A stretch of DNA of 64,000 nucleotides from Candidatus Omnitrophota bacterium. GTDB lineage: Bacteria; Omnitrophota; Gorgyraeia; Zapsychrales; Zapsychraceae. The notes under the pieces were generated by a model. That model searched no databases and was not told the origin of the DNA. It worked only from the letters and a program-made list of their open reading frames with translations. Below are positions 22,019 through 53,908 of the stretch, piece after piece; the first letter of the stretch is position 1; every line of letters begins with the position of its first letter. The position numbers were made by a program, and so were the translations under genes. The stretch lies in the NCBI GenBank assembly GCA_018062515.1, contig JAGOSC010000005.1, positions 880 through 64,879 on the forward strand, written 5' to 3'.

Positions 22019-23090
22019 ATGATGATTTTTAAAAGAAATAAAAGAAATTTAACCCGAAAAATAACTTCCACCTTTGTCTTATTTTCATTTATTTTCTCAT
22101 CAATACTACCTCCTCAAGTCTCGGCGCAGAGCGTATTCCATTTACCTATACCTGGGACCCTGTTTAATGTTACAAATACCTTTAATCCTTTTATCATTCA
22201 AGGGCTTACTGTAGATCCGCAAAATCCTCTTCATTTCAGTTTTATTATTGACACCGGCGACACGCAAACAAACGATCCAGACGCTTTCCGCTTAGAATCT
22301 ACAAAACTAGTCAAATATTTCTTAGCATCCTTAACCGTTCCCGAAGATCAAATGTGGGTTAACCTTTCTCCGTATGAAGGCAACCGCATTATTTCGGACA
22401 CATTTGGTCAAACCGAAATGGGCCGTGACTTATTAGCTCAAGATTATATTCTCAAACAAATGTCGGCTTCTTTAACGTATTCAGAAGAAGAATTGGGTGA
22501 AAAATTTTGGCACAGGGTCCACCAACGCGCAAAAAAAGAATACGGCGTTAAAGATATTCCTTTAAATACTTTTAATAAAGTATGGATCATTCCTCAGAAG
22601 GCAACCGTTTATGAACATGACGGCAGCGCGTATGTCGTCAATAGCCGGTTAAAAGTAATGATGGAAGAAGATTACTTAGCCTTAAACAAAAATATCGGTG
22701 AGCAAGCTTTTGGTATGAATAATGTCAAGCAAGATGAGGCGGAATCCACGAGTAAAGTTACTTCCGCCATCATTAAAGAAATTATTATCCCGGAACTCGA
22801 GAAAGAAGTGAATGAAGGCAGCCATTTTGCCAATTTGCGTCAAATTTATCAGTCGATGATTTTAGCGACCTGGTACAAAGTGAATTTAAAAGAATCACTT
22901 TTAGGAAAAGTTTATATTGATCAAAATAAAGTCCAAGGAATTGATTTAAACGACAAAAACGCGAATCAGAAAATTTATGAACAATATTTAGCCGCCTTTA
23001 AAAAAGGTGTTTACAACTATATTAAGGAAGACTACGATTCAGCCACTCATAAGTCAACACCTCGTCAATATTTCGCCGGCGGATTTGTTC
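22019..23090 (+). other. Leader plus shared N-terminal module, copy A (unknown family)
   Basis: MMIFKRNKRNLTRKITSTFVLFSFIFSSILPPQVSA|QS, then LPIPGTLFNV...GLTVDPQNPLHFSFIIDTGD...FLASLTVPEDQMWVNLSPYE...FGQTEMGRDLLAQDYILKQ...NLRQIYQSMILATWYK...AFKKGVYNYIKEDYD...PRQYFAGGF. Colinear with the same region of ORFs B, C and D. Confidence 0.85.
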
Positions 23091-26000
23091 CAAAAACCGA
23101 AGATAATGCGACTTTAGCAGAATTGATCACACGAGAGAAGACCACTCGTTTAGCCGCTACGGATCAGGCAGCTTTAACTCCGAAAGGAAACCAGATTCGA
23201 GCTGATTTCGCTTTATTAGAAGACTTAACCGATGAAGATGCTCCAAAGGTACAAAAACCGATTGAAAAAATTGAAGACGCGCAGATAGCTGTGGACCCTA
23301 ATTGGGTTGAGGACTATTTGGAAAATCTTTTCCCTGAAAACAGCTTTCCTAAACCAGTCAAACAAGAACCAGTCATTATCAGCAAAGAAAGAAAAGAATT
23401 AGAAGACGAATTAATCGCCAATCGTTCTCAATTCTCGGGCTCTAGAATAAATCGGAATATTAAGGAAAAAACAGGGCTTGACGTTCCCGAGGACACTGTC
23501 GATTATTTCGTCGAGCATAGTGGAACCCTCCCTGGATTAAATCACCGTGCTGACCGTTCCCAGGTTATAGGGCAACTTATCCGCAATCATCGTCCTTATG
23601 AAATCTCTAAATTATTTGCCTTATCAGAATCCAAAAATTTTGAAAGAAAATATTATCCTGCCTGGATCCAAGCTTTATCAAAAATATTTACTTTTTTGAA
23701 AGATAAAAATTCAACCATTAATACAGAATTAACCGTTCAAGTCAATTTAGACGGAATTCTTTTAATTAAAGACGGCTCGGGAGAAGAACTCAAGGCGTTT
23801 CAGAAATTGGATCAATTGCACACGGAAAAAGCTTCCGTCGGTGCACTGGCCCTTCAAATTGTCAAATTATTAACCCATGATTACGACGGTTTGGAACTCA
23901 CCAACACTAAAGAATTGTCAGATGATTTAGTATCCATCTTTAATATTTTCGGAATCAAGCCGACGGTGATTAATGATGCGTGGATGCAAACTGTCCTGGG
24001 ATACGGAGATTCTTCATTAAATCTTCAAGCTCTAAAAGAAGGCGTTGAAGTAACTGAAGCTGATGTCGACACTTATCTTTTCCGTCTGGACACAGAAAAA
24101 AGTTTAGCTCGTCAAGCCGGAGAGACTGTATATCTTTCTACGCGCTCAGAAGCCGTCGCTGAAATGATTAAAGAAAATAAATATGATTCTGCTCTTTTAG
24201 CCTCCATCGATGAAAAGGCTTTAACACCGGAAATTCTTACTGCTTTTGGCGGAAATGTAACGGCCGCACAAACGGTCGTGGCCGAGCGTCTTGAGGCTAT
24301 GCGCGTCGCTGATCCGAATGCCACCGTCGAGCAAGCTGTCGCCCGTTTAGCTTGGGAATATAAGCCGCGCGATATTCAAAACGTTTTTCCTGGAGACAAC
24401 TGGAAATTTATGTTTTTGGCCGCCAAAGCCGGCATGAAAGCTCCGATTCTTTTATTAGACTTGGAAGACGCAGTTGCGACAACTCGTAAAGAAATTGCCC
24501 GCGGTGTTATCGTACAATTGATCCGGGCTTTTAAAGGTGAAGGATTAACACAAGATGAATTTGATTTCTTGCAGAAGAACGCGCTTCAGGCTGATGATGA
24601 AAAATATCCGATGACTAGTTTCTTTACACAAAGTCTTGTCGACGGAAAAACTGTTTATACGTTAAATCCTGAAAATCAATTCCATAAAGATCAAATGGTT
24701 CTTTTCCGCCCGAATAATTTAAGAACAAAGTGGTCGGCAGGGGATTATTCTCAAGTTTTTCGTAAAGTCGGTCATTTGGTAGACGGTATTTATATGCCTA
24801 AAGTAGAAGGCCCAGAAGATATCAAAATCGGCGCGTCTATTTTACGCGCCATTCAGAAAGAACAAAACTGGGTCGTTGGTCGTCACAAAATTTTTGTTTT
24901 AACCGAACTTCCCGGCGCTGTTTTGACCGCTGAAAATATTTTAAAAATAGCTCCTGAAGTTGAAGAAGTTCAATTAGGAGTCGTCGATTACACCGCAGCG
25001 ACGGGTGGAAAAAATCAAGTTCAAATCGAACAATTTCCATTTATGCGTTATGCCTTATTACGCTTGGTTGAAGCCGCTAATAATATAGGGAAATCCGCCG
25101 GTTTAGGTATTACCGTTCAATTTACTCCAGAAGCAACAGCCGAGGATACAGTCAAGGCTATTAATATTGGCCTTCATCGCAAATGGAGCGTTCATCCAGC
25201 GCATTTGAAAGGCATGGAATCATTCATCGGAAAATTCCCAAAGATTGTCCGAAAAGATATTCAATATGATGAACTACAAGGATTTGATTTGGTACAGCTA
25301 GATCAATACGCTAGTGAAAGCCGTCCAATTTTAGCTCCTAAAGTTTTAACACCTAAAGATGTGGTTTTATCCAGAGCTGTGGTCACTGTTTCATCCGGAA
25401 ATATTGATGGGCTTAAAAAAGCTCTGGATTCAAATGCTGATACTATTATTTTGGATTTCGGGAAAAAAGAAAATTTGTCTGAAATTAAAAAAATATTAGT
25501 TCAGGCTAAAACAACAAAGAGTATTCTTGTTGTCGATGAGCTTGATTCCCTACAATCAATTAAACAAATTGTAACTGAGTTAAATGGATATTTTCAAGGA
25601 TTTAACCTGAATAACATACAGAATGCATCAACAGTAAGAGATGTGGATGGATTGTTATCAGAAGCAGAAAGTGATTTGGGATTAAACGCAGGCAGCTTAA
25701 AAATTGCCGTCAGCTTTAATGACCCGCAAGTGGTCGAGGAGCAATCCCGCTATCTCGGCACCGATCCAGCTAAAGCTCTTTTGTATTCCAGTCAACGCCT
25801 CAGCTGGGCCATCTTGAATTTGCCTACCATGCCGACTGAAGATTTAGATGATCCGGAAACGAGAGGATACAATTATTATCATTCTTTATTTATTGCCATG
25901 ACCGCTCATGCCGAAGTCGATTCCATCGACGGTTATAGCGCGGATGAGAATTTAACAGAACAAGTTGCGACCTCAGCCATTTGGGGATTTCAAGGAAAAC

Positions 26001-29000
26001 TAGCTAACTTGAATCAAGTTGATGAAATTACTGAAGCCATGAGCCCGCAGCGAGCTGGAATTATGCCAGAATTTTCTACTCCAGAGGAACGTAAAGCTTG
26101 GTTAGCTACTGCCGAAGGAAAAATTTATGTAGCACGTTGGAAAAATTCATTAGAACGAGATTTGGAACTGATGGATCTGTATGCCGAAGCGGATCAAGAA
26201 CGGCAATTAGGTGCGGTAGGTTATAAGGATCCTTTAACCGGCGCTATTGAAATCGTCGACGCTGCTTCAGCTCGAATTCCATTCCGACAATTAGAAAAAG
26301 CTTTAAAGACAAATCAATTAACCGATACGGAAAAAGTTCGATATGCAAAATCACGAGAAAAATTACTTTTAGCCATGCGTCCAGGCGGACGAGAAGGCAG
26401 CGGTGAAAAAGTTTTTGCCGGGCAAAAAATTACAGCTCCGGCCATTGTGATGCGTCCTTGGATGGTTAATGCGTTTGCTAAAGATGGCGATCAAAACCGT
26501 TATCATTTAGATGAAGCTTATGCCAACGCCTCAAAATTTAAAGGATTAGTTGCTCATGGATTATTGACGGTAACTAAGGCTTTAAGTTCTTTAAAAGCTC
26601 AATTACCGGCTTATAAAATTGAAGAAGTCGACGACGCTAAATTCTTAGCTCCTGTACGCTTTAATGATACGATTACCCCGGTCATTGATGTTACGAGTGT
26701 CGACAATGAAAAAGCCAATGTAAAAATTAGTGTAATCAATCAAGACGGAAAAACAGTCAGTGAAATCAAAGTTTTATTAATAGAAAGCACTGATTCTCAA
26801 ATCATTCCAAAAATTAATAATGATTCTTTAAAATCAGCAGAAAAGGTGCCGGCTTCTATTCCGGCCGTCATTTACGATTTTACTGATCCACAAAGTCCTC
26901 GAGAACAAACGTTCAAGCAGGAAATCACATCCAGTTATTTAGAAAATGTTCAAGGATCTAATTTGATTACAAGCCGGGATTTATTAAGTCAATTAGCTGC
27001 CTTTAAAATGATGGCCGGTACTTCCGCCAATGCCGTCCCAGGCCACATATTATTGAATGCAACAAATGTAAAATTCGGAGCTGAAATTCATTTAGGTGAT
27101 GTATTGACCGCCAAAGCTACTGTTCCTGCAGCTGATCAAATTAAATTGACTAAAGACAATCTTCCTAAAGTTCCAGTCACGATTGAAATCACGAATCAAA
27201 ATGGAGAAATGGTTTTAAAAGGACAAGTATTAAAACTCATGGAACCGGGTAAAGATCGAGCGATGCTGGCCAAAAAACCATACCTTCTGCCAAGAGGAAA
27301 AATTGTTACATCGCCGGATGAACTTCCAACACATATGGAAGCATATGTAGTCCGACGCGGTGAGCATGGTGACCCAATTGATGCGTTTAAAAAATCCATT
27401 CAACCCGTTCCCGATGTGGGCGATTATGAAGTCCTTGTCCAAGTTATGGCTGGAGGATTAAATTTTAATGGAACATGGGCCCTTCAAGGTCTTCCCATTT
27501 CTCCATTTACTTATCCTTTGAATAAATTCCACGATGAACAACGCTTAGGTAGTGATGCTTCAGGCATTGTTGTGGCCGTTGGCAAACATGTCACACAATA
27601 TAAAATTGGTGATCAGGTTGTTATGGCTACCGGTGAAGATGACCGCGCTGAAAAAGATCCTGATCATGGCGATACCATGCAAAAACGAACGTTTGTTATC
27701 ACCGGGTATGAAACTCCGGATGGAACGTTCGGTCAATTTGTCGCTTTGGATGAACGTCAAGTACATCCGAAAGAGGCAAATATGACTTGGGAACAAGCCG
27801 CCAGTTATCATTTAGTCGCCGACACAGCTTGGCGAGATATGAAATACAAACTGGGTGTTAAAAAGGGAGATACTGTATTAATCTGGGGGGCATCAACAGG
27901 AGTAGGAGCTTTTAATGTCCAGATCGCTAAATATTTAGGAGCCAAGAATATTGTGGCGGTTGTTTCCAGTGCTTCAAGAGCGGAACAAGCCAGAAAATTC
28001 GGGGCCACTCAAGTGATTAATCGAACTGAACTTCCTAAAATTTTGGGATACAGTGATGCTGAAATTTGGGGTGAACTCTCTAACAATCCCCAAAAGCAGC
28101 AAAAACAAATTGAAATGTTAAATAAGTTCAGAGAATATTTTCTTTCTCTAACGGGTGGTGAATTAGCCGATGCCGTTGCGGAACAAATCGGCCAAACAAC
28201 TTATCCAATTAGTCAATATTTAGCTAAAGATTCCGGAAAAGTCACTCATTTTGCCGGAACATTTGGTTTCAAATTTACCTTTATGGGAAAAGATTTACCG
28301 TTGGATGAGAATACAAAAAAGCAAAAAACGCCACTTCAAATGTTAGAAGAAGCTGGTGTACGCGACGCTAAACGAGTGCTGATATATGGTGCTGATCAAC
28401 TTTCTAAAGAAATTTTTGAGGAAGTTAAAAAATACAGCACTAATATTGCTTTCATCGTTAAAAGCCAAGAAGAACAAAATACAGTCGAAAACTGGGATTT
28501 AGAAAAGACATATATCAAAGGTATTGTAGATTTAAATCCGATTTCTTTTCCTGAAGATATGCCTACACCTCCTCATCCAGACATCCCGGCAGATAAACAG
28601 GCAAAAAATCTTGAAGAATTTAATGAGTATCGTATCAAAGTACTGGATCCAATCCGAGGATCGGTTGTAAAAGCTTTAGGCGGTCAGCCCGACTTAATTG
28701 TTGAAAGAGCGGGGAACAAAAATACTTTGGATATCAGCGTATTTGTCGTGCGTCCTCATGGCGTCGTAACATATGTTGAATCAACAAAAGGAAAACGTTT
28801 AGTCTTTGATGCCCGATTTATTTGGATGTTCCAAAAGCAAATTTATCCTTGGGTTCTTGGGACTCATTATGCGAACCACACACAAACCAAGGAATTAAAT
28901 GATTTAGTTTTAAAAGGCATCATAAGCGTACCTGAACCCGAAGTATTTTCTTGGGATGAATTACCCTTAGCCCAGCAGAAAATGTATGAAAATAAATTAA

Positions 29001-29941
29001 TCGCAACCAAAGCGTCTGTTCTTATCGGAGCTGTTAAACCAGGACTGAAAGGTCTGCCCGAAGAAACTGCGGCAGAACTGCCCATAAAAAACGAAGAGGG
29101 ATTGCTTCCGGCTTTCATGATTACCTCAAAAATCATAGAACCCACCATTTCTGATAATCAAATCAATCTTTATAAGAATCCGGCCATTGATCTATCTGAG
29201 AAATTCGCAATATTAGCTGCTAAATCAAAATTTAAAGACCCAAATAGCGCCCTAGGAATGTATGCCTTGGAAACAAAGGCATTTATACCTGCCATTGTTG
29301 AAAAAGTTTTCGGGAACACGGCGGAATTAGGGGAATTTAAATTAAAGGGGTTTACATCATTTGCTCCTAGCGGATTAGATGCTAATGATCAAATTCGAAC
29401 GACATTGCAAGTAAGCCGCAATTTTAAGATCGACGGGGATGATGTATACCTTAATGCCCGTATATCTTTGGATAAATTTTTTGTCGATTCCGGAAAATGG
29501 AAAGAGTTGTTGGTCGGAAATCAAATACTAAAAATGCCAATTAACGACTTAAACTCTTTAGGTTTTTACTTACCGTCTGAAAAAATTGACTCCGCTTTGA
29601 TTGGAGAAAAAAACGATGTTAGCCTGAATAATAATATCGCTGAATCCAAAAAAGAATACGGCGGTATTGACTTTAATTCAAAATTTTTGAATCTTCAGAT
29701 CAAGCGTGATGGACGAGGAATTCCATTGCCGGTGAATCAGCAGCCATTGATGAACATTCACATCAATGGATTTTATCCGGTTCTCATTGAAACAATGCCG
29801 ATTAATTTACCATTGATTCTCGGTTTAGAGACGGAAGAAGAAGATTCGAATTCAAGAACTCAACAAAGTTCACTTGATCCTTTGCATAAACAAGAAGACA
29901 TACGTATCGAAGATTTAGAAACAGCCAGCATACTAAACTAA
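22019..29941 (+). CDS. Giant fusion protein A (2640 aa): leader + shared N module + 2x CitE/HpcH-like lyase + 2x MaoC hot-dog + crotonyl-CoA carboxylase/reductase-like MDR + shared C module
   Basis: Uninterrupted 7.9-kb ORF in AT-rich DNA. GAGGAA lies 8 nt upstream of the ATG. Domain motifs are listed in the sub-features. Confidence 0.9.
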   Translation: MMIFKRNKRNLTRKITSTFVLFSFIFSSILPPQVSAQSVFHLPIPGTLFNVTNTFNPFIIQGLTVDPQNPLHFSFIIDTGDTQTNDPDAFRLESTKLVKYFLASLTVPEDQMWVNLSPYEGNRIISDTFGQTEMGRDLLAQDYILKQMSASLTYSEEELGEKFWHRVHQRAKKEYGVKDIPLNTFNKVWIIPQKATVYEHDGSAYVVNSRLKVMMEEDYLALNKNIGEQAFGMNNVKQDEAESTSKVTSAIIKEIIIPELEKEVNEGSHFANLRQIYQSMILATWYKVNLKESLLGKVYIDQNKVQGIDLNDKNANQKIYEQYLAAFKKGVYNYIKEDYDSATHKSTPRQYFAGGFVPKTEDNATLAELITREKTTRLAATDQAALTPKGNQIRADFALLEDLTDEDAPKVQKPIEKIEDAQIAVDPNWVEDYLENLFPENSFPKPVKQEPVIISKERKELEDELIANRSQFSGSRINRNIKEKTGLDVPEDTVDYFVEHSGTLPGLNHRADRSQVIGQLIRNHRPYEISKLFALSESKNFERKYYPAWIQALSKIFTFLKDKNSTINTELTVQVNLDGILLIKDGSGEELKAFQKLDQLHTEKASVGALALQIVKLLTHDYDGLELTNTKELSDDLVSIFNIFGIKPTVINDAWMQTVLGYGDSSLNLQALKEGVEVTEADVDTYLFRLDTEKSLARQAGETVYLSTRSEAVAEMIKENKYDSALLASIDEKALTPEILTAFGGNVTAAQTVVAERLEAMRVADPNATVEQAVARLAWEYKPRDIQNVFPGDNWKFMFLAAKAGMKAPILLLDLEDAVATTRKEIARGVIVQLIRAFKGEGLTQDEFDFLQKNALQADDEKYPMTSFFTQSLVDGKTVYTLNPENQFHKDQMVLFRPNNLRTKWSAGDYSQVFRKVGHLVDGIYMPKVEGPEDIKIGASILRAIQKEQNWVVGRHKIFVLTELPGAVLTAENILKIAPEVEEVQLGVVDYTAATGGKNQVQIEQFPFMRYALLRLVEAANNIGKSAGLGITVQFTPEATAEDTVKAINIGLHRKWSVHPAHLKGMESFIGKFPKIVRKDIQYDELQGFDLVQLDQYASESRPILAPKVLTPKDVVLSRAVVTVSSGNIDGLKKALDSNADTIILDFGKKENLSEIKKILVQAKTTKSILVVDELDSLQSIKQIVTELNGYFQGFNLNNIQNASTVRDVDGLLSEAESDLGLNAGSLKIAVSFNDPQVVEEQSRYLGTDPAKALLYSSQRLSWAILNLPTMPTEDLDDPETRGYNYYHSLFIAMTAHAEVDSIDGYSADENLTEQVATSAIWGFQGKLANLNQVDEITEAMSPQRAGIMPEFSTPEERKAWLATAEGKIYVARWKNSLERDLELMDLYAEADQERQLGAVGYKDPLTGAIEIVDAASARIPFRQLEKALKTNQLTDTEKVRYAKSREKLLLAMRPGGREGSGEKVFAGQKITAPAIVMRPWMVNAFAKDGDQNRYHLDEAYANASKFKGLVAHGLLTVTKALSSLKAQLPAYKIEEVDDAKFLAPVRFNDTITPVIDVTSVDNEKANVKISVINQDGKTVSEIKVLLIESTDSQIIPKINNDSLKSAEKVPASIPAVIYDFTDPQSPREQTFKQEITSSYLENVQGSNLITSRDLLSQLAAFKMMAGTSANAVPGHILLNATNVKFGAEIHLGDVLTAKATVPAADQIKLTKDNLPKVPVTIEITNQNGEMVLKGQVLKLMEPGKDRAMLAKKPYLLPRGKIVTSPDELPTHMEAYVVRRGEHGDPIDAFKKSIQPVPDVGDYEVLVQVMAGGLNFNGTWALQGLPISPFTYPLNKFHDEQRLGSDASGIVVAVGKHVTQYKIGDQVVMATGEDDRAEKDPDHGDTMQKRTFVITGYETPDGTFGQFVALDERQVHPKEANMTWEQAASYHLVADTAWRDMKYKLGVKKGDTVLIWGASTGVGAFNVQIAKYLGAKNIVAVVSSASRAEQARKFGATQVINRTELPKILGYSDAEIWGELSNNPQKQQKQIEMLNKFREYFLSLTGGELADAVAEQIGQTTYPISQYLAKDSGKVTHFAGTFGFKFTFMGKDLPLDENTKKQKTPLQMLEEAGVRDAKRVLIYGADQLSKEIFEEVKKYSTNIAFIVKSQEEQNTVENWDLEKTYIKGIVDLNPISFPEDMPTPPHPDIPADKQAKNLEEFNEYRIKVLDPIRGSVVKALGGQPDLIVERAGNKNTLDISVFVVRPHGVVTYVESTKGKRLVFDARFIWMFQKQIYPWVLGTHYANHTQTKELNDLVLKGIISVPEPEVFSWDELPLAQQKMYENKLIATKASVLIGAVKPGLKGLPEETAAELPIKNEEGLLPAFMITSKIIEPTISDNQINLYKNPAIDLSEKFAILAAKSKFKDPNSALGMYALETKAFIPAIVEKVFGNTAELGEFKLKGFTSFAPSGLDANDQIRTTLQVSRNFKIDGDDVYLNARISLDKFFVDSGKWKELLVGNQILKMPINDLNSLGFYLPSEKIDSALIGEKNDVSLNNNIAESKKEYGGIDFNSKFLNLQIKRDGRGIPLPVNQQPLMNIHINGFYPVLIETMPINLPLILGLETEEEDSNSRTQQSSLDPLHKQEDIRIEDLETASILN
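24360..25230 (+). other. CitE/HpcH-family (malyl-CoA lyase / citrate lyase beta-like) domain 1
   Basis: APILLLDLEDAVA, LFRPNNL, IYMPKVEGPEDI, IFVLTELPGAV, LGVVDYTAATGG, WSVHPAHL. This is colinear with CitE-family motifs from memory. Boundaries are approximate. Confidence 0.6.
25350..26060 (+). other. Second, degenerate CitE-like domain
   Basis: SRAVVTVSSGNIDGLKKALDSNADTIILDFGKKEN, where the DLEDAV-type motif is replaced, and later IWGFQGKLANLNQVDEITEAMSP (compare GF.GK..IHP.QV). Boundaries are approximate. Confidence 0.45.
26400..27240 (+). other. Tandem MaoC-like hot-dog (enoyl-CoA hydratase/dehydratase) domains
   Basis: DGDQNRYHLDEAYANASKFKGLVAHGLLT is the MaoC signature D.NP.H.D...A....F...IAHG. 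A second hot-dog-like half follows (...GHILLNATNVKFGAEIHLGDVLTAKATV). Confidence 0.65.
27330..29040 (+). other. Crotonyl-CoA carboxylase/reductase-like medium-chain reductase domain with an internal insertion
   Basis: EVLVQVMAGGLNFNGTWAL, LGSDASGIVVAVGKHVTQYKIGDQVV, ETPDGTFGQFVALDERQVHPK, GDTVLIWGASTGVGAFNVQIAKYLGAKNIVAVVSSASRAEQARKFGA. All are colinear with Ccr-type sequences as I remember them. It is ~120 aa longer than stand-alone Ccr. Confidence 0.65.
29657..29835 (+). other. Shared C-terminal module, copy A
   Basis: YGGIDFNSKFLNLQIKRDGRGIPLPVNQQPLMNIHINGFYPVLIETMPINLPLILGLE, followed by a polar/acidic ~35-aa tail. Confidence 0.85.
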
Positions 29942-34000: not shown

Positions 34001-35141
34001 AAAATTCATCGCGGATTTCGGTGCCGTACAAATATCCTTAGCCAACTCAGAAGCCATGTTATACGCCTTGGAATCGATGGTCTATGCTGTCAATGCAGAA
34101 TTTGATAGCGGCCGTAATCCCGTTTTTGAATCAGCTATTTTGAAAGTGATCGGGACAAACACATTCCAGGATATTGCCCGTCAAGGTGTGCAAAAACACG
34201 GCGGCATGGGTTTCGGGCGGGAAACGGAAGTCGCTAAATATTTCGAAGATTCCATCGCACTCGCGCAGATTGGCGGATCAAATAATGTCCTATTAGGTGT
34301 TGTTATCGGCCCCTTGGGATTAACGGCTTTAAAAGAAAATTCCGGCCTGAGCATTTTGGAAAACTGGAATATTCCGGAAGGCCCGTTGACGGATGATGTC
34401 CTTAGAATAAAAGTAGCCGCTAAAACTATTTTGAATATGGTGAGTGAATTTGAAAAACGCGGCATTACGAAAAATAACCCTTCCGCCAGTATATATTTTC
34501 ACCTGCTTGGAGAAATGTTTGTCCAACTCTATGTGATGACCACGACGGTGAACCGCACTCAACATCGTTTAGATAAGGGCATGGATTCTGCGCATGAAAT
34601 TGGTTTAACAAAAACCATTGTCATTGACGGGATACAAAAAATACAAAAATTAGCGCAAGAATTACGTATTTCTGCGCCATCCACGCCATCCCTAAACAGT
34701 GATCAATTGGTGGCCTTGAAAACAGAAATCGCGGAATCAACATTAGAACGCACGACCGATTGGGAAAAACCACAAACAGAAAAAGATATAGCCATGGTGG
34801 CAGAAACCGAAGATCCATACTTGATGAATAAAGCAGATCTCAATACACCGTCGACAAAAGATAAGGTAGGGGGTATTAATTTAGACCGTTCCTTACTGAA
34901 TATGCAAATCCTCCGGGATGAGGGCGGTGTTCCTCTTCCGCTCGACGATCAACCGCTTTTGGAAATGAATATCGAAGGGTTTATTCCGGTGATCATTCAA
35001 ATTACACCGGCTCTAAATGTGCCTTTATTGTTGGGGTTAGCCGGTGAAAAGAAAGATTCAAATTCAAACAGCCAACGCGGTTCGCTAGACCCTTTGCAAA
35101 AAAAAGAGCATATGCTTGTAGAATATGAGGAACGCAGCTAA
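29958..35141 (+). CDS. Giant fusion protein B (1727 aa): leader + shared N module + two acyl-CoA dehydrogenase units + shared C module
   Basis: GTG start 16 nt after the ORF A stop, preceded by AGGGA. 5.2-kb open frame. Motifs are in the sub-features. Confidence 0.88.
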   Translation: MINQFKKFQPRFAYKLFCAVINVAFISTSVLPPSYAQVLPTAFALPQPGAMVNLTEKFMPVIVRGITIHPENPLMFDFMVDQGDTTLDATALKNESLKLIKYFLASLTIPEKEMWVNLSPTEKDRIIPDSFGETEMGRDLLAQDYVLKQLTASLMYPEKELGQKFWQRVRERAKSEYGLTDIPMDTFNKVWIVPKSAVVFEGKNSAFVVESELDVMLEEEYSQLDGVIQAQGSSSIKSSSAKEIIKEVILPEIKKEVNTGETFANLRQIYNSMILASWYKDNLKKSLLGQVYVDQNKIRGIDVEDKNVKLKIYDQYMKAFKKGVYNYIREDYDSASKKMVPRRYFSGGETFTNLKITRQDIDDSGMLSASQKDAMNPGNTDVIVTVALADFGSNVDTTTLKQAAKELNEDQSMVGENPENKKGITGGFLTDGNLVVYDNPKIVLYPENVKDHPDVDTMYQMFESILGQNSEIVQSVGERIDTKEIHVEEPYEVTVNGKNESRESLIKQLGGLGLLGMSVPAEYRTVELGGDGKKAFPKIVKSLADKWAWYGNASIGSLVRVHGGVSTFPILIYGTEEQKKKYLPKLASGEMIGAYALTESNHGSDTLNQETVFDTTGVIVEQDGKKYVKINGSKQYITNTRFADIFTVFVSVQNPEWNKDQPDAAPQWLKSVFVVEKKDSTPDTFSFGPEMEKIGLPGSATQEIFFNDLLIPMDNLLGKLGQGDKIGMSILNYGRLAIGAGSLGGSQRILDESIRWILTRQQFGHPLADFSAVQTNIAEMEANIYAMEALVYAVSALLDNNEAPGLEASIAKVWGSNTFQKIAQMGVNLRDDEGFLKSTHVNRILGDSVVMSIFEGANEVLSSQVIAALSMKYLDKKDKLLGSWTIPQDSPVYDESLHIKQAAETIMQAKDKLIKTYGTTSVLRERGKEHLQEYFNAFGLMIADLYVLVNTLNRTHHLLLSNPQSQHERNLAKLVVEEGIRRIESNAGLILTQDEIKLVNLGTESPVELKIQVAKHILENNKFMTWTPATATDEEIVSTEGAKPVSTFLFSGQKGEYPESALPFMEDNEQFAEGPMYEGLKEIFADMVVSKQINKNLDEGHLKLTQIWDELKELGLFDPEYSTIVKNWVNQFAAYASPSLGLTLAVHNGVGSMPIKLFGSDAQKEKYLPLFNSGENIAAMAITEKEHNSDIYSDNTVLETTATPITDENGTIVSYQIKGSKDYVINASDNSIYIILASVLNESQGKQKSLFIVEHNDTGKISVTEQKNKMGLRSAMTAVVDFNITVPADRMIGEADQSDMINQNIQGYTWTALGSIYLGASDIAFKETLKYVTQRKQFSYKKDNVLKRKFIADFGAVQISLANSEAMLYALESMVYAVNAEFDSGRNPVFESAILKVIGTNTFQDIARQGVQKHGGMGFGRETEVAKYFEDSIALAQIGGSNNVLLGVVIGPLGLTALKENSGLSILENWNIPEGPLTDDVLRIKVAAKTILNMVSEFEKRGITKNNPSASIYFHLLGEMFVQLYVMTTTVNRTQHRLDKGMDSAHEIGLTKTIVIDGIQKIQKLAQELRISAPSTPSLNSDQLVALKTEIAESTLERTTDWEKPQTEKDIAMVAETEDPYLMNKADLNTPSTKDKVGGINLDRSLLNMQILRDEGGVPLPLDDQPLLEMNIEGFIPVIIQITPALNVPLLLGLAGEKKDSNSNSQRGSLDPLQKKEHMLVEYEERS
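31330..32580 (+). other. Acyl-CoA dehydrogenase domain 1
   Basis: LGLLGMSVPAEY, GAYALTESNHGSD, INGSKQYITN, RQQFGHPLADF, IFEGANEV (the Y-E-G-T-type position keeps the Glu). Boundaries are approximate. Confidence 0.7.
33200..34330 (+). other. Acyl-CoA dehydrogenase domain 2 (divergent)
   Basis: ELGLFDPEYS, AAMAITEKEHNSD, IKGSKDYVINA, RKQFSY. The C-terminal motif reads AQIGGSNNV, where ACADs of the MCAD type have Y-E-G-T. Confidence 0.6.
34866..35045 (+). other. Shared C-terminal module, copy B
   Basis: VGGINLDRSLLNMQILRDEGGVPLPLDDQPLLEMNIEGFIPVIIQITPALNVPLLLGLAGE, followed by a polar tail. Confidence 0.85.
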
Positions 35142-36200
35142 GTGATTATTCAGTTTAAAAAATTCCAGTTAAAATTTACCTATAAATTTCTTTGTACGGT
35201 TATCAATATTGCGTTTATCTCGACTTGTGTTCTACCGCCGAGCTATGCTCAGGTTTTATCTTTACCCCAACCTGGAACCATGCTGAATGTAAGCCCGGTT
35301 TATACTCCGCCCATGATCAAAGGACTGACCATTGATCAAGAAAACCCGCTGCATTTTCAATTTATTATTGATACTGGAAATGAACAATATAAAGATAATG
35401 ATCAGCTTCGAGAAGAATCAACACGCTTAATTAAATATTTCCTTGCTTCGTTAACAGTTCCTGAAAATGAAATGTGGGTGAACCTTTCACCCCATGAAAA
35501 AGACCGCATTATTCCCGACGGGTTCGGCCAAACCGAAATGGGCCGTGACCTTTTAGCCCAGGATTATATTTTAAAACAACTCACCGCGTCATTGATTTAT
35601 CCTGAAAAAGAATTAGGGGCTGAGTTTTGGAAAAAAGTGCATGACCGCGCTTGGAAAGAATTTAAAACAAAAGAAATTCCATTGGATACATTTAATAAGG
35701 TTTGGATTGTTCCGGAAAAAGCAGTGATTTATGAACATGAAAGAAGCGCTTATGTTCTGGAAAGTCATTTAAAGGTCATGTTGGAAGAAGATTATCAAGC
35801 ACTTATATCCAATACTTCGTCGACATCCGCGGACAATCAAAAATTAAAAGATGATAATCGGCAACTGACAGCGTCGATCATGAAAGAAATTATTATTCCG
35901 GAAATCGAACGGGAAGTTAATGAAGGTAAAAATTTCACAAATCTACGCCAAATTTACCAGTCGATGATTTTAGCGACGTGGTACAAGATGAACTTAAAAG
36001 AGTCATTACTTGGACAAATTTACGTCGATCAGAATAAACTCATAGGGATTGATCTCGACGATAAGAATGTTAAAGACAAAATTTACGCGCAGTATATAGA
36101 AGCCTTTAAAAAAGGTGTTTATAACTATATCAAAGAAGATTATGATCCTGACCAGCAAAAGACCGTTCCTCGTCAATACATTTCGGGCGGTTTCTCGACG
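35142..36200 (+). other. Leader plus shared N-terminal module, copy C
   Basis: ..INIAFISTCVLPPSYA|QV, LPQPGTMLNV..GLTIDQENPLHFQFIIDTGN..FLASLTVPENEMWVNLSPHE..FGQTEMGRDLLAQDYILKQ..NLRQIYQSMILATWYK..AFKKGVYNYIKEDYD..PRQYISGGF. Confidence 0.85.
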
Positions 36201-39200
36201 GTAGGAAAAGATAACGCAACGCTCGTTGATCTCGTTGGCCGAGAAATCATTAAGTCCAGCGCCGGCTATGTGAGCGCGGATCAATATAAACGTATTTCCA
36301 AAGGACTTAAACCCAGCGGTGATCAATTCAGAACAGATGTTCAATTATTAGAAAACGGAAATAATGGAATTATTAACGCCGATCAATCCATGCTGGTTAA
36401 GATCGACGATGCTTTACAAAAAAATCCTTCTCAAAAAGTTCATACGGTTAAAGGATACACACCGGCTGGAAATCCAATTGAAGATGTTCTTACATATCAG
36501 GATATCAGCGACCAATCCAATCAATTTGCCCATGTATTAAAAAATGCGGGGATTGAAAAAGGCGACCGTGTGGCTGTTATGTCGCCGGTCTCAGGTTTGG
36601 AAATGATCGCGTCTTTGGGAATTTGGAAAGCCGGGGCAGTACGTGTACCGTTTAAAACCCAATGGACGTCGAATGAAATTAAAAAATATTTGACCCAAAC
36701 CACGCCTGAAGCGATGGTTATTCTAAATGTGTATTACGATCAACATTTATTGTCAATTTTAAATGAATTTAAAGATTTAAAAGTTTATATCATTTCTTCC
36801 GGCGAAACTATTTCTTCAACACCTCACGTCATGACTTTTCAAAATAGTTTAATCAATCAAACAACGGATTTCTTAAATATTTCTTCCGATCCGAGGGATT
36901 TAGTCCAATTGGCTATTTCCACCGGAACAACCGGTGAATCAAAAATTGTAAAGCAAACACAAGAAAACTTTTATTTCAGTACGCAAGAGTATAGTGAGTG
37001 GCTTGATGATGCTCCTCAAGGCCCTGTCGTCAGCACTTTACCGCCGGGAACGTACGGAAGCCATAGTATTTTAGGAACTGTTCTGCGAGGACGTCCGTTA
37101 TATATCGTTCCCCGTTTACCCAAAAATCAAACGACCGATGAATATACCCAGACATTATCGGAAACATTGAAGAGAACAAACGCGAAAATTTTATTCGGCG
37201 TTCCAACGCAATTTCAGGCTTTAGCCATGACGGGAGAAAAATTCCCCGGCCTTATTGGTTTAAGCCGAGGAGCCGCGTTAAGAGATGTAAAACAATTATT
37301 TGAGTCGGTGACCGGAGGACGGGTTATCGAAGGTTATGGATTGACAGAAGGAACCAGTTCAGTCACCAATCCGATTAATAGAGATAAGCCGGGTACCGTC
37401 GGAATTCCGTCAAAAGATACGACATTTAAAGTCATTAATCCATCCACGCAAAAAGAACTTCCCATTGGTGAAGAAGGTGAATTAGTGTTAAAAGGCCCGC
37501 AGGTTATGGCCGGATATTGGGAAGATCCTGTGGGCACTAAAGCCGCTTTTACAGAAGATGGATTTTTAAGGACCGGCGATTTGGGCTCCATCGACAAAGA
37601 TGGTTATATAAAAATCACCGGCCGCTTAAAAGACATTATTATTTCCGGCGGTGATAATGTCATTCCGTCGGAGGTAGAAAAAATTATTAAAACCAACGCC
37701 GCTATCGAAGAAGTTACCGTCGTCGGTATAAGTGATCCTGGCCGTTTTCCTGATGATCCGGCATTTGCTGAGCTCGTTGAACATTGGGGGGAAGTTGTTG
37801 TCGCGTTTGTCGTCCCGAAAAAGGGCATGAATACTTTAAATTTAGAGCCATCCATACGAGAATTTGCCAAAAAGAATTTGGCTGCTTATAAAGTCCCCAA
37901 AAAAGTTGTTGTCCTCAATAAACTGCCTCTGCTAGGAGACCTTTTTAAAATTGACCGTCAACAACTCATCCGAGGCGACAATGACAATGCTGTTTTAGTT
38001 ATTCCTTCAGCCATCAAGAATATAGAAAATATAAAAGCCAAATTAGTGTTAAATTTTATGATAAATGAGACTTTAAGAAATGGTTTAATTTCCCAAATTG
38101 ATGGCGAAAAACTTATTCCTTCTGTGGCCATTGATGATGAACAAATAACAGTTGCAAAAAAAGTCAGCGATGAAGAATATGAACTATCCGGAACGAAGGC
38201 GGCTGTTGTCAATGGAGGCCGGGCTTCTTTTTATATTGTATTTGCGCAGCTCAACGGAAAATCAAAAGCGTTCTTAGTCGACAATCCAAAAGGGATAACC
38301 AAAAAATCTGTTCCCACCATGGGCTTGGCTGAAAATAATATTGCTCAAGTTCAGTTTAACCGTGTTAGAGCCAAACTCATCACTGATAATTTAGACGATT
38401 CCGAAATACTTAAAGCTGTACAAAATAAAGAAAATAAAATCATTCGAGCCCTGGCTATTTCCGAAGCCCAAAGGATATATAAAATGGGCGAGAAATATGC
38501 CGCCGAAAGACGCGCCTTTGGACAATCCATCAATAAATTCCCATCTTTAAAACGATTAATGGATGGTATTCAAACGGATGTAGAAAACATCAATGCATCC
38601 CCGAATCCAACCGCCATGCTGGTTGATATAGCCAACCGTGTCCTTCAAATTTTTGCGGCGCGCGGATTTGAAAATAATACGCCGGCTGTAAAAATCTGGC
38701 GTGAGGCACAGGCCCTACATGCCATTGTCACTTATCGGCAATCTTTAACAAAAACAACTCCGGAAAACATATCTCTTGACCCTGAAGAGGTATTTAAAAA
38801 AGGTTCATGGGAAGATTTTGGATTAACACCGGATCAGATTTCTCTAAAATCGAAAATTCGCAATTTTGCGGAAAATATCGTCGCGCCAATGTATGAAGAG
38901 CTTGATCGTGATGGACAGTATCCGCTTTCTATATTGAAGAAAATGGGGGATGCCGGCATTACAAAACCCGGTTATCCAAAAGAAGTTGGCGGTGAAGAAG
39001 CTGACACATTAAGCTGGGCCATCGTCGTCGAGGAACTGGTTAAAGCGGCTCCGGCCTTCGGTATATTTTCCGGTGTTCCGCACACGGCTTCCGTTCCAAT
39101 TCTCAAATCCGGCACTCCCGAACAGAAAGAAATTGTCGCGCAAGTTGTCCGCGGAGAAATTCCTCTATCTTACGGACAGAGCGAACCTCACAGCGGATCG

Positions 39201-52179: not shown

Positions 52180-52773
52180 ATGAACCCATCGATCAATTTC
52201 AGCGACCTACGAAAATCTCTGGATGAAGCAATCACGTTCGCCGAGCTCGAAAAAGCCGAACAAATTGCCGATCAAGGTTTAGAATTTGCCCTTTTTAAAG
52301 AAGACTTGGGCGAAATTATGTACTTCCAAGCACAACACGCCATTCTCGATGAGAATTTTAATCTCGCTATTCGATTTCTAAAAGAAGCGGTTGAATATAA
52401 CCCCTTCGACGGAGCCGCGTACAATGATATTGCTTTGTGTATGATTGAAATCGAAGAAGATGTTCACGAAACAATGTCTTATTTCGACATTGGCATAGAA
52501 GTAGAACCCGACTATGCCACCATTTTCCATAATAAAGGTTGGTTTTTGAATCAACTCGGACGCCCGCAAGAGGCAATTGCCTATTTAAATAAGGCATTAA
52601 CGATTGAACCAGATAGAGCGGTGACTTTCGAGAATTTAGCCGACGTTTATATAAAACTCGGTGAAACCGCCAAGGCCATCTCGGCCTATCAGACGTCCTT
52701 ACGTCTTCTCGATCAATCCTATCCTGATATTCGTCAGCAAATTTTCGAAAAACTCAAAATCCTGATGAGCTAA
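52180..52773 (+). CDS. Tetratricopeptide-repeat protein
   Basis: Repeated A..Y...G/A..A...Y..AL...P helical pairs (e.g. AAYNDIALCMIEIEE, FHNKGWFLNQLGRPQEAIAYLNKALTIEPD, FENLADVYIKLGETAKAISAYQTSL). Confidence 0.65.
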   Translation: MNPSINFSDLRKSLDEAITFAELEKAEQIADQGLEFALFKEDLGEIMYFQAQHAILDENFNLAIRFLKEAVEYNPFDGAAYNDIALCMIEIEEDVHETMSYFDIGIEVEPDYATIFHNKGWFLNQLGRPQEAIAYLNKALTIEPDRAVTFENLADVYIKLGETAKAISAYQTSLRLLDQSYPDIRQQIFEKLKILMS

Positions 52774-53869: not shown

Positions 53870-53908
53870 ATTTACACATATCCACGGTCTAAACGCTTAA
53901 AAAAATTC

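What the first reader, a model, noticed from the sequence alone, without database searches (positions are those of the whole stretch)
29657..29941. Shared ~60-aa C-terminal module GGID(L/F)N...LQIKRDG.G.PLP...QP....I.GF.PVII...P..NLPLLLG plus polar tail (also 34866, 45295, 51813)
All four proteins end the same way: a GGIDLN-type turn, a basic/Gly/Pro segment, a hydrophobic Pro-punctuated stretch (GFYPVLIETMPINLPLILGL) and a 30-40-aa acidic/polar tail. Copies A and C share a 26-nt identical run (29699-29724 = 45339-45364), which suggests gene conversion or very strong constraint. A leader peptide combined with a conserved C-terminal domain is the logic of two-step sorting systems, such as T9SS CTDs or sortase/exosortase signals. 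This motif matches none of those that I know.
Basis: partly seen in the sequence, partly recalled or inferred. Interest (0 to 1): 0.8.

Follow-up and report, generated by a model that had tools for sequence, protein, structure and literature searches.

The report
End-cap on exported, cysteine-free enzyme giants
The shared C-terminal motif is real: it is the tail half of an undescribed pair of end-caps that Omnitrophota bacteria put on huge, almost cysteine-free proteins made of strung-together metabolic enzymes, which look exported from the cytoplasm even though their enzymes need cytoplasmic cofactors.

Summary
Four tandem ORFs of 2640, 1727, 3472 and 2173 aa all end in the motif GGID(L/F)N..LQIKRDGxGxPLP..GFxPVIIxxxPxxNLPLLLG, followed by an acidic tail.

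A profile of this module finds 5,136 protein clusters. The module is always single and always at the extreme C-terminus. All named sources are Omnitrophota.

It is half of a pair. In 40 of 40 intact relatives, the protein starts with a conserved Sec-type leader (A|Q site) and a ~350-aa N-terminal module of novel predicted fold.

Between the caps lie cytoplasmic-type enzymes:
- In the window, an ethylmalonyl-CoA-like set.
- In relatives, GAPDH-PGK-enolase and others.

The mature window proteins have 0 Cys in 9,852 residues, against 0.9% in neighbouring genes. Relatives have 0.036%, and many of the few retained Cys (at least 11 of 37) lie in recognised catalytic motifs. This is the signature of exported proteins.

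The hydrophobic stretch is not a TM helix (about +7 kcal/mol). The tail is acidic. The module does not fold alone in AF2. It matches no Pfam, NCBIfam or PDB entry.

Best reading: it is a partner-dependent docking or sorting element of a new bipartite cap. No machinery was found, and gene conversion is not needed to explain the 26-nt run.

The parts
22019..29941 (+). ORF A (2640 aa): leader + N-cap + HpcH/malyl-CoA-lyase-like, MaoC hydratase and crotonyl-CoA carboxylase/reductase-like cargo + C-cap
22019..22126 (+). Leader of A (aa 1-36, ...ILPPQVSA|QSVF): basic n-region, hydrophobic h-region, PP, small residues at -3/-1, Gln at +1
22127..23083 (+). N-cap core of A (to YFAGG, aa 355). A conserved trailing beta-strand motif GNQIRADFALLE follows at about nt 23186-23221
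29657..29941 (+). C-cap of A (the finding). GGIDFN turn at 29660. LQIKRDGRGIPLP hairpin region. Pro-punctuated hydrophobic strand GFYPVLIETMPINLPLILG at 29768-29824. A 38-aa acidic tail ending ...ETASILN, then the stop codon
29958..35141 (+). ORF B (1727 aa, GTG start): leader (29958-30065) + N-cap (core to 31001) + two acyl-CoA dehydrogenase units + C-cap
34866..35141 (+). C-cap of B (GGINLD at 34869; strand GFIPVIIQITPALNVPLLLG at 34977-35036; 34-aa tail)
35142..45560 (+). ORF C (3472 aa, GTG start abutting the stop of B): leader (35142-35249) + N-cap (core to 36191) + acyl-CoA ligase, acyl-CoA dehydrogenase, B12-dependent acyl-CoA mutase and B12-binding domain (DGHDVG motif) + C-cap
45295..45560 (+). 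C-cap of C (GGIDLN at 45300; strand GFYPIIIEMTPVNLPMLLG at 45408-45464; 31-aa acidic tail ending ...EDLSYLN)
45567..52088 (+). ORF D (2173 aa): leader (45567-45659) + N-cap (core to 46589) + carboxyltransferase alpha- and beta-like domains and a cNMP-binding domain + C-cap
51813..52088 (+). C-cap of D (GGIDLN at 51816; strand GFSPVIINITPIHNLPLILG at 51924-51983; 34-aa tail)

Best explanation
The motif is the core of a ~95-120-aa C-terminal cap. This cap terminates a large, Omnitrophota-specific class of proteins of about 0.55 to 5.8 kaa or more. Their architecture is:
1. a Sec-type leader;
2. a ~350-aa N-cap plus a trailing beta-strand;
3. a chain of metabolic enzymes;
4. the C-cap.

Step 1, supported by sequence statistics but inferred. 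The leader drives Sec export and is cut at A|Q. The whole polypeptide crosses the inner membrane, because the C-terminal hydrophobic stretch is far too polar and Pro-rich to stop transfer. Selection has removed nearly every non-catalytic cysteine from the mature chain, as happens in exported proteins.

Step 2, inferred. The C-cap emerges last. It is not an autonomous domain. It consists of:
- a GGID turn;
- a beta-hairpin (LDLQIKRDGxGxPLP);
- a nearly invariant Pro-punctuated strand (GFxPVIINITPxxNLPLLLG);
- an acidic tail that often ends in [IVL]SxLN-COOH.

I propose that the C-cap works as a docking or sorting element that becomes ordered only on a partner, by beta-strand addition. The most likely partner is the N-cap, either of the same chain (which would clasp the cargo into a loop) or of an operon neighbour (head-to-tail assembly). 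The alternative partner is an unidentified envelope receptor.

The caps therefore mark and organise exported multi-enzyme 'pathway polypeptides'. They are not catalytic parts of the cargo.
For: Obligate pairing and position:
- In 44 loci from Omnitrophota genomes, all 40 intact ORFs with the C-cap start with the N-cap. Tandem arrays are common.
- Apparent stand-alone C-caps or N-caps are frameshift-split genes.
- Among the 150 best of 5,136 clusters, the match is a single stretch at the very C-terminus.

Export:
- The leader n-region has a median charge of +3. The uncharged run is ~18 residues. Ala is at -1 in 95 of 104, small residues are at -3, and Gln is at +1.
- The leader h-region has dG(15) of about -0.7 kcal/mol.
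- The mature parts of A-D have 0 Cys in 9,852 residues, against 92 in 10,393 (0.885%) for the 35 other window ORFs.
- Relatives have 37 Cys in 103,055 residues (0.036%), against 1.14% in flanking ORFs.
- 109 diverse representatives have 0.03%.
- Met is normal (ratio 0.89), so this is not sulphur economy.
- Other ORFs with heuristically assigned signal peptides in the same genomes are also Cys-poor (0.40% vs 1.32%).
- At least 11 of the 37 retained Cys lie in motifs I recognise from memory as catalytic: GAPDH SNASCTTNA twice (with the usual second Cys replaced by Ala), the nicotinamidase GLACDYCV motif (two Cys each, twice), and the KKCGHM motif of the isocitrate-lyase family. Six more form CxxC pairs. 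The other 20 or so were not assigned.
- Cysteine exclusion from exported proteins is established (PMC2823432).

Not a TM anchor, not autonomous:
- Summed Hessa dG for the best 19-mer in the C-cap has a median of +7.25 kcal/mol in 320 members, and none is <=0. Real TM segments in window membrane proteins score -1.2 to 0.06.
- At least 90% conservation of G, I, I and three Pro in the strand indicates specific recognition, not mere hydrophobicity.
- AF2 on the C-cap alone (124-sequence alignment) gives no secondary structure and pTM 0.26.
- In the natural near-cargo-less protein P0164 (N-cap + C-cap), the same residues form strands 457-459, 466-471 and 492-503, with pLDDT up to 87.
Against: - No coordinates or PAE were available, so what the C-cap strands pair with in the AF2 model is unknown. 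The P0164 C-cap pLDDT is only 60-87.
- Mutual-information covariation between the N-cap and C-cap was uninformative (Neff 103).
- No receptor or processing enzyme was found.
- The cargo needs ATP, CoA, NAD(P)H, FAD, adenosylcobalamin and cNMP. These are not expected outside the cytoplasm, so export creates a functional paradox.
- Cleavage at A|Q is predicted, not shown.
- The signal-peptide and dG analyses are simple heuristics. The Hessa scale values were recalled from memory and used without position weighting.
Confidence: 0.5

Rival explanations
1. Cleaved C-terminal sorting signal, following sortase, exosortase or rhombosortase logic. After Sec export, a dedicated but unidentified enzyme recognises the GGID...PLP / GFxPVIINITP motif. 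It removes the C-cap and attaches or releases the protein.
For: - Strict C-terminal position.
- Layout of motif, then hydrophobic stretch, then tail.
- Nearly invariant GG and Pro residues, suggestive of enzyme recognition.
- Conserved extreme C-terminus [IVL]SxLN-COOH in 50 of 218 members.
- Paired with a leader, and export is supported.
Against: - No match to any NCBIfam or Pfam sorting-signal model, even at E<=10.
- The hydrophobic stretch is not TM-competent.
- The tail is acidic: mean net charge -3.2, 80% negative and only 10% positive. All known sortase-type signals have a basic tail.
- No sortase-, exosortase- or rhomboid-like gene recurs in the window or in 44 loci.
- This model does not explain the obligate ~350-aa N-cap.
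Confidence: 0.2
2. Type-I-secretion-like uncleaved C-terminal secretion signal for one-step export of giant acidic proteins.
For: - The signal lies in the last ~60-100 aa.
- The proteins are giant and acidic, with pI 5.0-5.6.
- They are almost Cys-free.
- The tail is acidic with a hydrophobic extreme C-terminus.
- C39 peptidase domains have been reported in Omnitrophota giant proteins (10.1101/2023.11.21.568195).
Against: - A canonical and strongly conserved Sec leader is present on essentially every member. T1SS substrates lack one.
- No RTX GGxGxD repeats are present; GG[IVL][DN] occurs only once or twice per protein, and one of those is the cap itself.
- No ABC, MFP or TolC genes are nearby.
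- T1SS signals are poorly conserved in sequence, whereas this one is nearly invariant.
Confidence: 0.07
3. Cytoplasmic scaffold tag. The proteins are not exported. The hydrophobic N-terminus is a membrane tether or a buried helix. The N-cap and C-cap assemble enzymes into cytoplasmic or membrane-attached metabolons.
For: - The cargo consists of cofactor-dependent cytoplasmic-type enzymes and signalling domains, including cNMP-binding, HATPase_c and HEAT domains.
- Each protein or operon concatenates one pathway. The window holds an ethylmalonyl-CoA-like set. L024 holds GAPDH x2, PGK, enolase and an aldolase-like domain.
Against: - A 30-fold Cys depletion limited to the mature part has no known rationale in a reducing cytoplasm. 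Cys is still tolerated inside the leader h-region, where about half of all family Cys are found.
- The leader has full SPase-I features.
- Uncapped enzymes in the same window have normal Cys content.
Confidence: 0.1
4. Simple C-terminal stop-transfer (tail) anchor. It would hold the exported chain in the inner membrane, with the acidic tail in the cytoplasm.
For: - A ~19-aa stretch has Kyte-Doolittle means of 1.43-1.81 in A, B and D; in C the stretch did not reach the 1.4 cut-off.
- Published DeepTMHMM surveys assign many Omnitrophota long proteins to an 'SP+TM' class (10.64898/2026.06.07.730766).
Against: - dG median of +7.25 kcal/mol, none <=0 among 320 members.
- Three conserved Pro and conserved Asn residues within the stretch.
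- Near-invariant sequence, which is atypical of anchors.
- The acidic flank violates the positive-inside rule.
- AF2 models the stretch as a beta-strand.
Confidence: 0.05

Closest known systems
Omnitrophota giant 'Archaeovorin' and 'multi-enzyme metabolic cluster' proteins (West-Roberts et al. 2023, bioRxiv 10.1101/2023.11.21.568195; bioRxiv 10.64898/2026.06.07.730766)
   Same: - Same phylum.
- Very long proteins that string together glycolytic and other cytoplasmic-type enzyme domains.
- They carry signal-peptide or TM predictions, and the authors found the implied extracellular location puzzling.
   Different: - Those papers treat proteins of 10-147 kaa with many predicted TM helices. In the text searched, they describe no conserved terminal modules and no cysteine depletion.
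- The family here is 0.55-5.8 kaa (among the hits examined), has no credible TM segment after the leader, and is defined by the N-cap/C-cap pair.
- Whether the giants carry the same caps was not tested.
Two-signal sorting systems: Sec signal plus a C-terminal signal (LPXTG/sortase, PEP-CTERM/exosortase, GlyGly-CTERM/rhombosortase, T9SS CTD)
   Same: - An N-terminal Sec-type leader combined with a conserved element at the extreme C-terminus.
- A large paralogous substrate family within one lineage.
   Different: - No homology to any of these signals.
- No TM helix.
- An acidic rather than basic tail.
- No autonomous beta-sandwich fold.
- No cognate enzyme found.
- An additional obligatory ~350-aa N-terminal domain.
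Two-partner secretion exoproteins (TpsA, such as FHA or CdiA)
   Same: - Giant Cys-poor exoproteins.
- A conserved (extended) signal peptide followed by a conserved N-terminal recognition domain of a few hundred residues, then variable cargo.
   Different: - The N-cap is a predicted alpha/beta fold with long helices, not a TPS beta-helix. It has no Pfam hit.
- No TpsB/Omp85 gene is adjacent.
- TpsA proteins have no conserved C-terminal cap.
- The cargo here is housekeeping-type enzymes, not adhesins or toxins.
Cohesin-dockerin assembly of cellulosomes
   Same: As a 'works like' analogy only: a short terminal module that is meaningful only when docked to a partner module, and that organises many different exported enzymes.
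   Different: - No sequence or fold similarity.
- Docking is hypothetical here.
- Both modules sit on the same polypeptide.
- The cargo is intracellular-type metabolism rather than glycoside hydrolases.
Metabolism in the intermembrane compartment of Ignicoccus hospitalis (recalled: Kueper 2010 and Flechsler 2021, PNAS; see also PMC5468417)
   Same: A precedent for energy- and carbon-metabolism enzymes working outside the DNA- and ribosome-containing compartment of a prokaryote that interacts with a tiny partner cell.
   Different: - An archaeon.
- No targeting signal is known.
- No evidence here that Omnitrophota have such a compartment.

Membership tests
LPXTG / sortase cell-wall sorting signal | LPXTG-like pentapeptide followed by a TM-competent hydrophobic helix | tested here: not met
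   No LPXTG-type motif in the consensus. The best 19-mer dG has a median of +7.25 kcal/mol, none <=0. No NCBIfam hit.
LPXTG / PEP-CTERM / GlyGly-CTERM (all sortase-type signals) | Short positively charged tail after the hydrophobic segment | tested here: not met
   The tail has a median length of 33.5 aa and a mean net charge of -3.2. It is negative in 80% and positive in 10% of 218 members.
PEP-CTERM / exosortase | Match to the PEP-CTERM model, and an exosortase gene in the genome or neighbourhood | tested here: inconclusive
   No NCBIfam match at E<=10. No exosortase-like gene in the window or in 44 loci. Whole genomes could not be searched.
T9SS C-terminal domain (Por_Secre_tail) | Autonomously folding ~70-100-aa beta-sandwich CTD that matches the TIGR04183/TIGR04131-type models | tested here: not met
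   No NCBIfam or Pfam match. AF2 of the module alone shows no secondary structure, pTM 0.26.
Type I secretion substrates | No N-terminal Sec signal; RTX GGxGxD repeats are common; cognate ABC, MFP and OMP genes | tested here: not met
   A canonical Sec-type leader is found on 104 of 117 N-termini examined. No RTX repeat arrays. No transporter genes nearby.
Type V autotransporters | C-terminal beta-barrel translocator: about 250 aa or more in the classical type, ~70-100 aa ending in an aromatic residue in the trimeric type | tested here: not met
   The conserved core is ~60 aa and is followed by a 5-87-aa acidic tail. The commonest last residue is Asn. No Pfam autotransporter hit.
Two-partner secretion TpsA | N-terminal TPS domain (beta-helix, Pfam Haemagg_act) and an adjacent TpsB | tested here: not met
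Encapsulin / BMC cargo-targeting peptides | Short C-terminal peptide or amphipathic helix, plus shell-protein genes | tested here: inconclusive
   No helix is predicted in the conserved core. No shell-protein Pfam was found among the neighbours scanned. Cargo of 188-383 kDa is implausibly large. Genomes were not searched.
Omnitrophota N-cap/C-cap proteins (family defined here) | Leader with an A|Q site, N-cap, Cys-poor cargo and C-cap at the extreme C-terminus | tested here: met
   All four window ORFs have these features. So do 40 of 40 intact relatives.

The most novel reading that the evidence does not exclude
Omnitrophota deliberately export whole central-carbon pathways as capped, cysteine-purged 'pathway polypeptides'. 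Examples are lower glycolysis and an ethylmalonyl-CoA-type CoA-ester pathway. The enzymes would be active outside the cytoplasm, in one of three places:
- a metabolically active periplasm-like compartment;
- a surface coat;
- the cytoplasm of the attached prey or host, where cofactors are available.

The N-cap/C-cap pair would then be the targeting and assembly code of this extracytoplasmic metabolism. This would be a new principle of bacterial cell organisation, or of predation by metabolic hijack.
Probability: 0.3. Interest if true: 0.95.

Novelty: new variant of a known kind. Interest (0 to 1): 0.82.

Why it matters
Why the family is worth attention:
- It is very large: 5,136 clusters at 50% identity carry the C-cap.
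- It is completely unannotated.
- It covers core energy-metabolism enzymes in a widespread phylum of ultra-small bacteria that probably depend on host cells.

What the caps provide:
- A sequence handle (two HMMs) for finding every member.
- A sharp, testable question: where do these organisms run glycolysis and CoA-ester metabolism?

How this relates to earlier work:
- Earlier papers were puzzled by 'extracellular' glycolytic domains in Omnitrophota giant proteins, and suspected errors in topology prediction.
- The cysteine-exclusion signal found here does not depend on topology predictors. It argues that the export is real.

If that holds, it would change how the physiology and the predatory or parasitic lifestyle of Omnitrophota are modelled. 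It would also give a natural example of Cys-free, concatenated pathway enzymes with modular end-caps, which is of interest for synthetic biology.

Tried and rejected
- **Gene conversion as the cause of the 26-nt run.** Similar 20-29-nt exact runs occur in the N-caps, and the run covers nine invariant residues. Constraint is enough to explain it.
- **Stand-alone C-caps or N-caps as evidence for action in trans.** P0068, P0001 and P0237 turned out to be pieces of frameshift-split genes.
- **Internal copies of the modules (polyprotein junctions).** None were found in the window or the loci. All but one of the top 150 hits have a single stretch.
- **A conserved neighbouring 'machinery' gene.** Clustering flanking ORFs from 45 loci gave only a TPR-driven group that includes PMT_2-like membrane proteins (8 loci) and local synteny blocks.
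- **Structural homology.**
  - Foldseek against PDB: best E 0.36, TM <0.1.
  - HMM against PDB sequences: no hit for either cap.
  - afdb50 was unavailable.
- **N-cap/C-cap covariation (MI-APC, 113 sequences, Neff 103).** The top pairs fall in variable, poorly aligned loops, so the result is inconclusive. A first attempt with mean-field DCA timed out.
- **A recurring 'SSP' linker motif seen in some relatives.** It is absent from the window proteins.
- **Tat signal.** The examples shown typically have a single Arg before the h-region, with no SRRxFLK motif.
- **Lipobox.** No conserved Cys at the cleavage site.
- **Literature.** No paper in the library contains the motif strings. Kizina et al. 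2022 (PMC9004380) is not held.
- **P0121, 'ribosomal S9' cargo.** It sits on a 2.4-kb contig and was judged unreliable.


Full report
**1. The observation**

The region holds four adjacent + strand ORFs separated by 0-16 nt:
- A, 22019-29941 (2640 aa)
- B, 29958-35141 (1727 aa)
- C, 35142-45560 (3472 aa)
- D, 45567-52088 (2173 aa)

The GGI(D/N) turn lies at nt 29660, 34869, 45300 and 51816. A 19-20-aa Pro-punctuated hydrophobic stretch follows, then a 31-38-aa polar or acidic tail.

The C-termini match each other at 35-55% identity, with E 1e-10 to 8e-25.

The 26-nt identical run (29699-29724 = 45339-45364) is real. But exact runs of 20-29 nt also link the N-terminal regions of the paralogues. 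The run covers nine invariant residues in a module that is 74% identical at the DNA level. Constraint is therefore enough to explain it, and gene conversion is not required.

**2. The motif is half of a pair**

The four proteins also share their first ~355-420 residues at 48-57% identity. This region contains:
- a ~36-aa leader;
- a conserved core ending in Y(F/I)(S/A)GG;
- after a variable linker, a conserved strand-like motif (xFxVxLLEN type).

Neither this 'N-cap' nor the 'C-cap' matches any Pfam or NCBIfam model, even at E<=10. Neither matches any PDB sequence.

Profile searches gave these results:
- More than 1,528 N-cap proteins among the 8,000 candidates scored.
- 5,136 C-cap cluster representatives (E<=1e-3) among 1.84 billion proteins.
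- Among the best 150 of those, the match is always at the extreme C-terminus and is a single stretch in 149. The proteins reach 5,808 aa.

Most hits that carry a source name are called Omnitrophota or Omnitrophica. A few are labelled Deltaproteobacteria, Bathyarchaeia or Heimdallarchaeota, which are probably mis-binned MAGs. All 44 genome loci recovered come from Omnitrophota MAGs, some of them labelled 'uncultured Planctomycetales'.

In those loci, all 40 intact ORFs that carry the C-cap start with the N-cap. Tandem arrays of 2-5 such genes are common. Apparent exceptions, namely short 'C-only' or 'N-only' proteins, are pieces of frameshift-split genes. There are no internal copies.

**3. The cargo**

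Between the caps lie cytoplasmic-type enzymes:

| ORF | Cargo domains |
|---|---|
| A | HpcH/malyl-CoA-lyase-like, MaoC hydratase, crotonyl-CoA carboxylase/reductase-like |
| B | two acyl-CoA dehydrogenase units |
| C | acyl-CoA ligase, acyl-CoA dehydrogenase, B12-dependent acyl-CoA mutase, B12-binding domain (DxHxxG present) |
| D | carboxyltransferase alpha- and beta-like domains, cNMP-binding domain |

Taken together, this looks like an ethylmalonyl-CoA-pathway-type set. That is my inference from the known pathway.

The cargo of 37 relatives includes PGK, enolase, PGM, PGI, GAPDH, TIM, PEPCK, PPDK, DeoC, NAPRTase, isochorismatase, HEAT, WD40 and HATPase_c. One protein of Ca. Zapsychrus exili (L024, 2,991 aa) contains GAPDH x2, PGK, enolase and an aldolase-like domain. 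Each capped protein or operon therefore tends to concatenate one pathway.

Ordinary uncapped enzymes lie in the same window: homoserine dehydrogenase, threonine synthase-like, aspartokinase, LeuA-like, ValRS and apgM.

**4. Evidence that these proteins are exported**

The leader has all the features of a Sec/SPase-I signal:
- The n-region has a median net charge of +3, and is >=+2 in 95%.
- The uncharged run is ~18 residues and often ends in PP.
- Ala is at -1 in 95 of 104, small residues are at -3, and Gln is at +1.

The leader h-region scores about -0.7 kcal/mol over 15 residues on the Hessa scale.

The strongest and independent signal is cysteine exclusion:

| Sequence set | Cys / residues | Cys % |
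|---|---|---|
| A-D, mature parts | 0 / 9,852 | 0 |
| 35 other window ORFs | 92 / 10,393 | 0.885 |
| 71 relatives' ORFs in the loci | 37 / 103,055 | 0.036 |
| Flanking ORFs in the loci | 1,161 / 101,749 | 1.14 |
| 109 diverse cluster representatives | 40 / ~132,000 | 0.03 |

At the window background rate, about 87 Cys would be expected in A-D. The four Cys that A-D do have all lie inside the leader h-regions.

Met is not depleted (ratio 0.89). The depletion is therefore specific to Cys and is not sulphur economy.

Many of the rare retained Cys sit in motifs I recognise from memory as catalytic:
- both GAPDH copies keep SNASCTTNA, with the catalytic Cys kept and the usual second Cys of SCTTNC replaced by Ala;
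- the nicotinamidase/isochorismatase motif GLACDYCV, twice;
- the isocitrate-lyase-family motif KKCGHM;
- a few CxxC pairs.

These account for at least 11 of the 37, plus six in the CxxC pairs. The other 20 or so were not assigned.

This argues that the enzymes are active, and that non-essential Cys is strongly selected against.

Cysteine exclusion is a known property of exported proteins in bacteria that do not rely on disulphide formation (PMC2823432). Other ORFs with heuristically assigned signal peptides in the same genomes are also Cys-poor, at 0.40% against 1.32% for heuristic cytoplasmic ORFs.

**5. What the C-cap is not**

- **Not a TM anchor.** The best 19-mer has a summed Hessa dG with a median of +7.25 kcal/mol in 320 members, and none is <=0. 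Real TM segments of window membrane proteins score -1.2 to 0.06. The stretch contains three conserved Pro and conserved Asn residues.
- **Not a sortase-type signal.** The tail is acidic (mean net charge -3.2, 80% negative) with a median length of 33.5 aa. In 50 of 218 members it ends in [IVL]SxLN-COOH, as in A and C. This is the opposite of the short basic tail of LPXTG, PEP-CTERM and GlyGly-CTERM signals.
- **Not an autonomous domain.** AF2 on the C-cap alone, with a 124-sequence alignment, shows no secondary structure and pTM 0.26. This differs from a T9SS CTD.
- **No nearby machinery.** No sortase-, exosortase-, T1SS-, TpsB- or T9SS-like genes occur near these genes, in the window or in 44 loci. 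No gene family recurs beside them, except TPR-containing proteins, some of them PMT_2-like membrane proteins, in 8 of 45 loci.

**6. What it most likely is**

AF2 was run on P0164, a natural 549-aa protein that is little more than N-cap plus C-cap:
- The N-cap is modelled confidently, with pLDDT 85-96.
- In this context the C-cap residues form strands (GID; DLQIKR; GFLPIIINVTPI) with pLDDT up to 87.

The contrast with the disordered stand-alone model suggests a partner-dependent element that is ordered by beta-strand addition. Two other facts point the same way: the obligate N/C pairing, and the near-invariance of consecutive residues in the strand.

The likeliest partner is the N-cap, including its trailing strand. 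This could happen in cis, which would clasp the cargo as an inserted loop, or in trans between operon neighbours. An unknown envelope receptor is the alternative.

I could not obtain coordinates or PAE. A covariation test with 113 paired sequences was uninformative. This step is therefore inference.

**7. Comparison with what is known**

Earlier work on Omnitrophota describes giant proteins of 10-147 kaa that tile many enzyme Pfams. It notes with some discomfort that topology predictors place glycolytic domains outside the cell.

In the text I could search, none of these papers mentions conserved terminal modules or cysteine depletion. The motif strings occur in no paper in the library.

The architecture resembles two-signal sorting systems and TpsA exoproteins in its logic. 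But every defining feature of those families that I could test is unmet (see the membership table). I therefore file it as a new variant of terminal sorting or assembly signals within the known phenomenon of enzyme-laden exported Omnitrophota proteins.

**8. The open paradox**

Exported enzymes would need ATP, CoA, NAD(P)H, FAD, adenosylcobalamin and cNMP. Possible resolutions are:
- a metabolically active periplasm-like compartment (compare Ignicoccus);
- a surface coat;
- action inside the attached prey, whose cytoplasm is reported to be in open contact with Ca. Velamenicoccus cells (PMC13153191).

None of these is tested here. This is the most novel reading that the evidence does not exclude.

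**9. Verdict**

- The mechanism is proposed with moderate confidence. Export is well supported, while docking is inferred.
- Interest is high, because the finding is large-scale and unannotated. It also turns a puzzling literature observation into a testable question.

Noticed in passing
window 22019-52088 (ORFs A-D): The mature parts of all four proteins contain no cysteine at all (0 in 9,852 residues). Their only 4 Cys lie in the leader h-regions. Neighbouring genes have 0.885% Cys.
   Followed up: yes
window 22019-52088: Taken together, the cargo of A-D resembles an ethylmalonyl-CoA-pathway-type operon. It comprises a Ccr-like reductase/carboxylase, a MaoC hydratase, an HpcH/malyl-CoA-lyase-like domain, three acyl-CoA dehydrogenase units, an acyl-CoA ligase, a B12 mutase and a carboxyltransferase. 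No thiolase, biotin carboxylase/BCCP or ETF was seen in the window.
   Followed up: partly
L024:1292-10264: A single capped protein of Ca. Zapsychrus exili (2,991 aa) carries GAPDH x2, PGK, enolase and an aldolase-like domain. It has 3 Cys, and two of them are the GAPDH catalytic Cys in SNASCTTNA. The usual second Cys of that motif is replaced by Ala.
   Followed up: yes
window 100-2012: An ORF6N/Rha-like gene and a tyrosine integrase at the window start suggest a mobile-element or prophage remnant. It lies ~20 kb upstream of the capped-gene array.
   Followed up: no
window 57745-62569: Three envelope-modification-type genes lie together: a multi-TM + TPR protein, an HTTM / vitamin-K-dependent gamma-carboxylase-like membrane protein with its lumenal domain (59502-61166), and a PIG-L deacetylase. 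Bacterial HTTM proteins have no known function (from my own knowledge), and the Glu-rich tails of exported capped proteins would be conceivable substrates. This is pure speculation.
   Followed up: no
window 15567-17228, 52180-52773, 57745-59502; L010, L016, L017, L018, L025, L034, L040: TPR-containing proteins, some of them large PMT_2-like membrane proteins, recur near capped-gene arrays in 8 of 45 loci. The clustering may be driven by the TPR repeats alone.
   Followed up: partly
window 53849-55177: A full-length serpin (Pfam E 3e-127) is encoded 1.8 kb downstream of the array.
   Followed up: no
window 20454-21782: The gene immediately upstream of ORF A is a BrkB-family membrane protein fused to a weak Rrf2-like C-terminal region.
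   Followed up: no
window 22994/30912, 22409/35529, 22571/46110 and others: Exact nucleotide runs of 20-29 nt are shared between the N-cap regions of the paralogues. They are comparable to the 26-nt run in the C-caps.
   Followed up: yes
L007, L022, L034, L045, L046, L048: Many MAG copies of capped genes are split into 2-3 ORFs by frameshifts or stops. These could be assembly errors, pseudogenes or something programmed. They produce spurious 'stand-alone' cap proteins in databases.
   Followed up: partly
model m7f9bacc1be84 (P0164): The best Foldseek PDB hits of the N-cap model are ClyA-family alpha-pore-forming toxins (MakA/B/E, NheA, SmhA). They are not significant (E 0.36, TM <0.1). They are worth a look only if a better model becomes available.
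   Followed up: partly
C-termini of A (29918-29938) and C (45537-45557); 50 of 218 family members: The extreme C-terminus is conserved as E(E/D)[IVL]SxLN-COOH. This hints at recognition of the free carboxyl end, for example by a PDZ-type or tail-specific protein. B and D lack it.
   Followed up: partly
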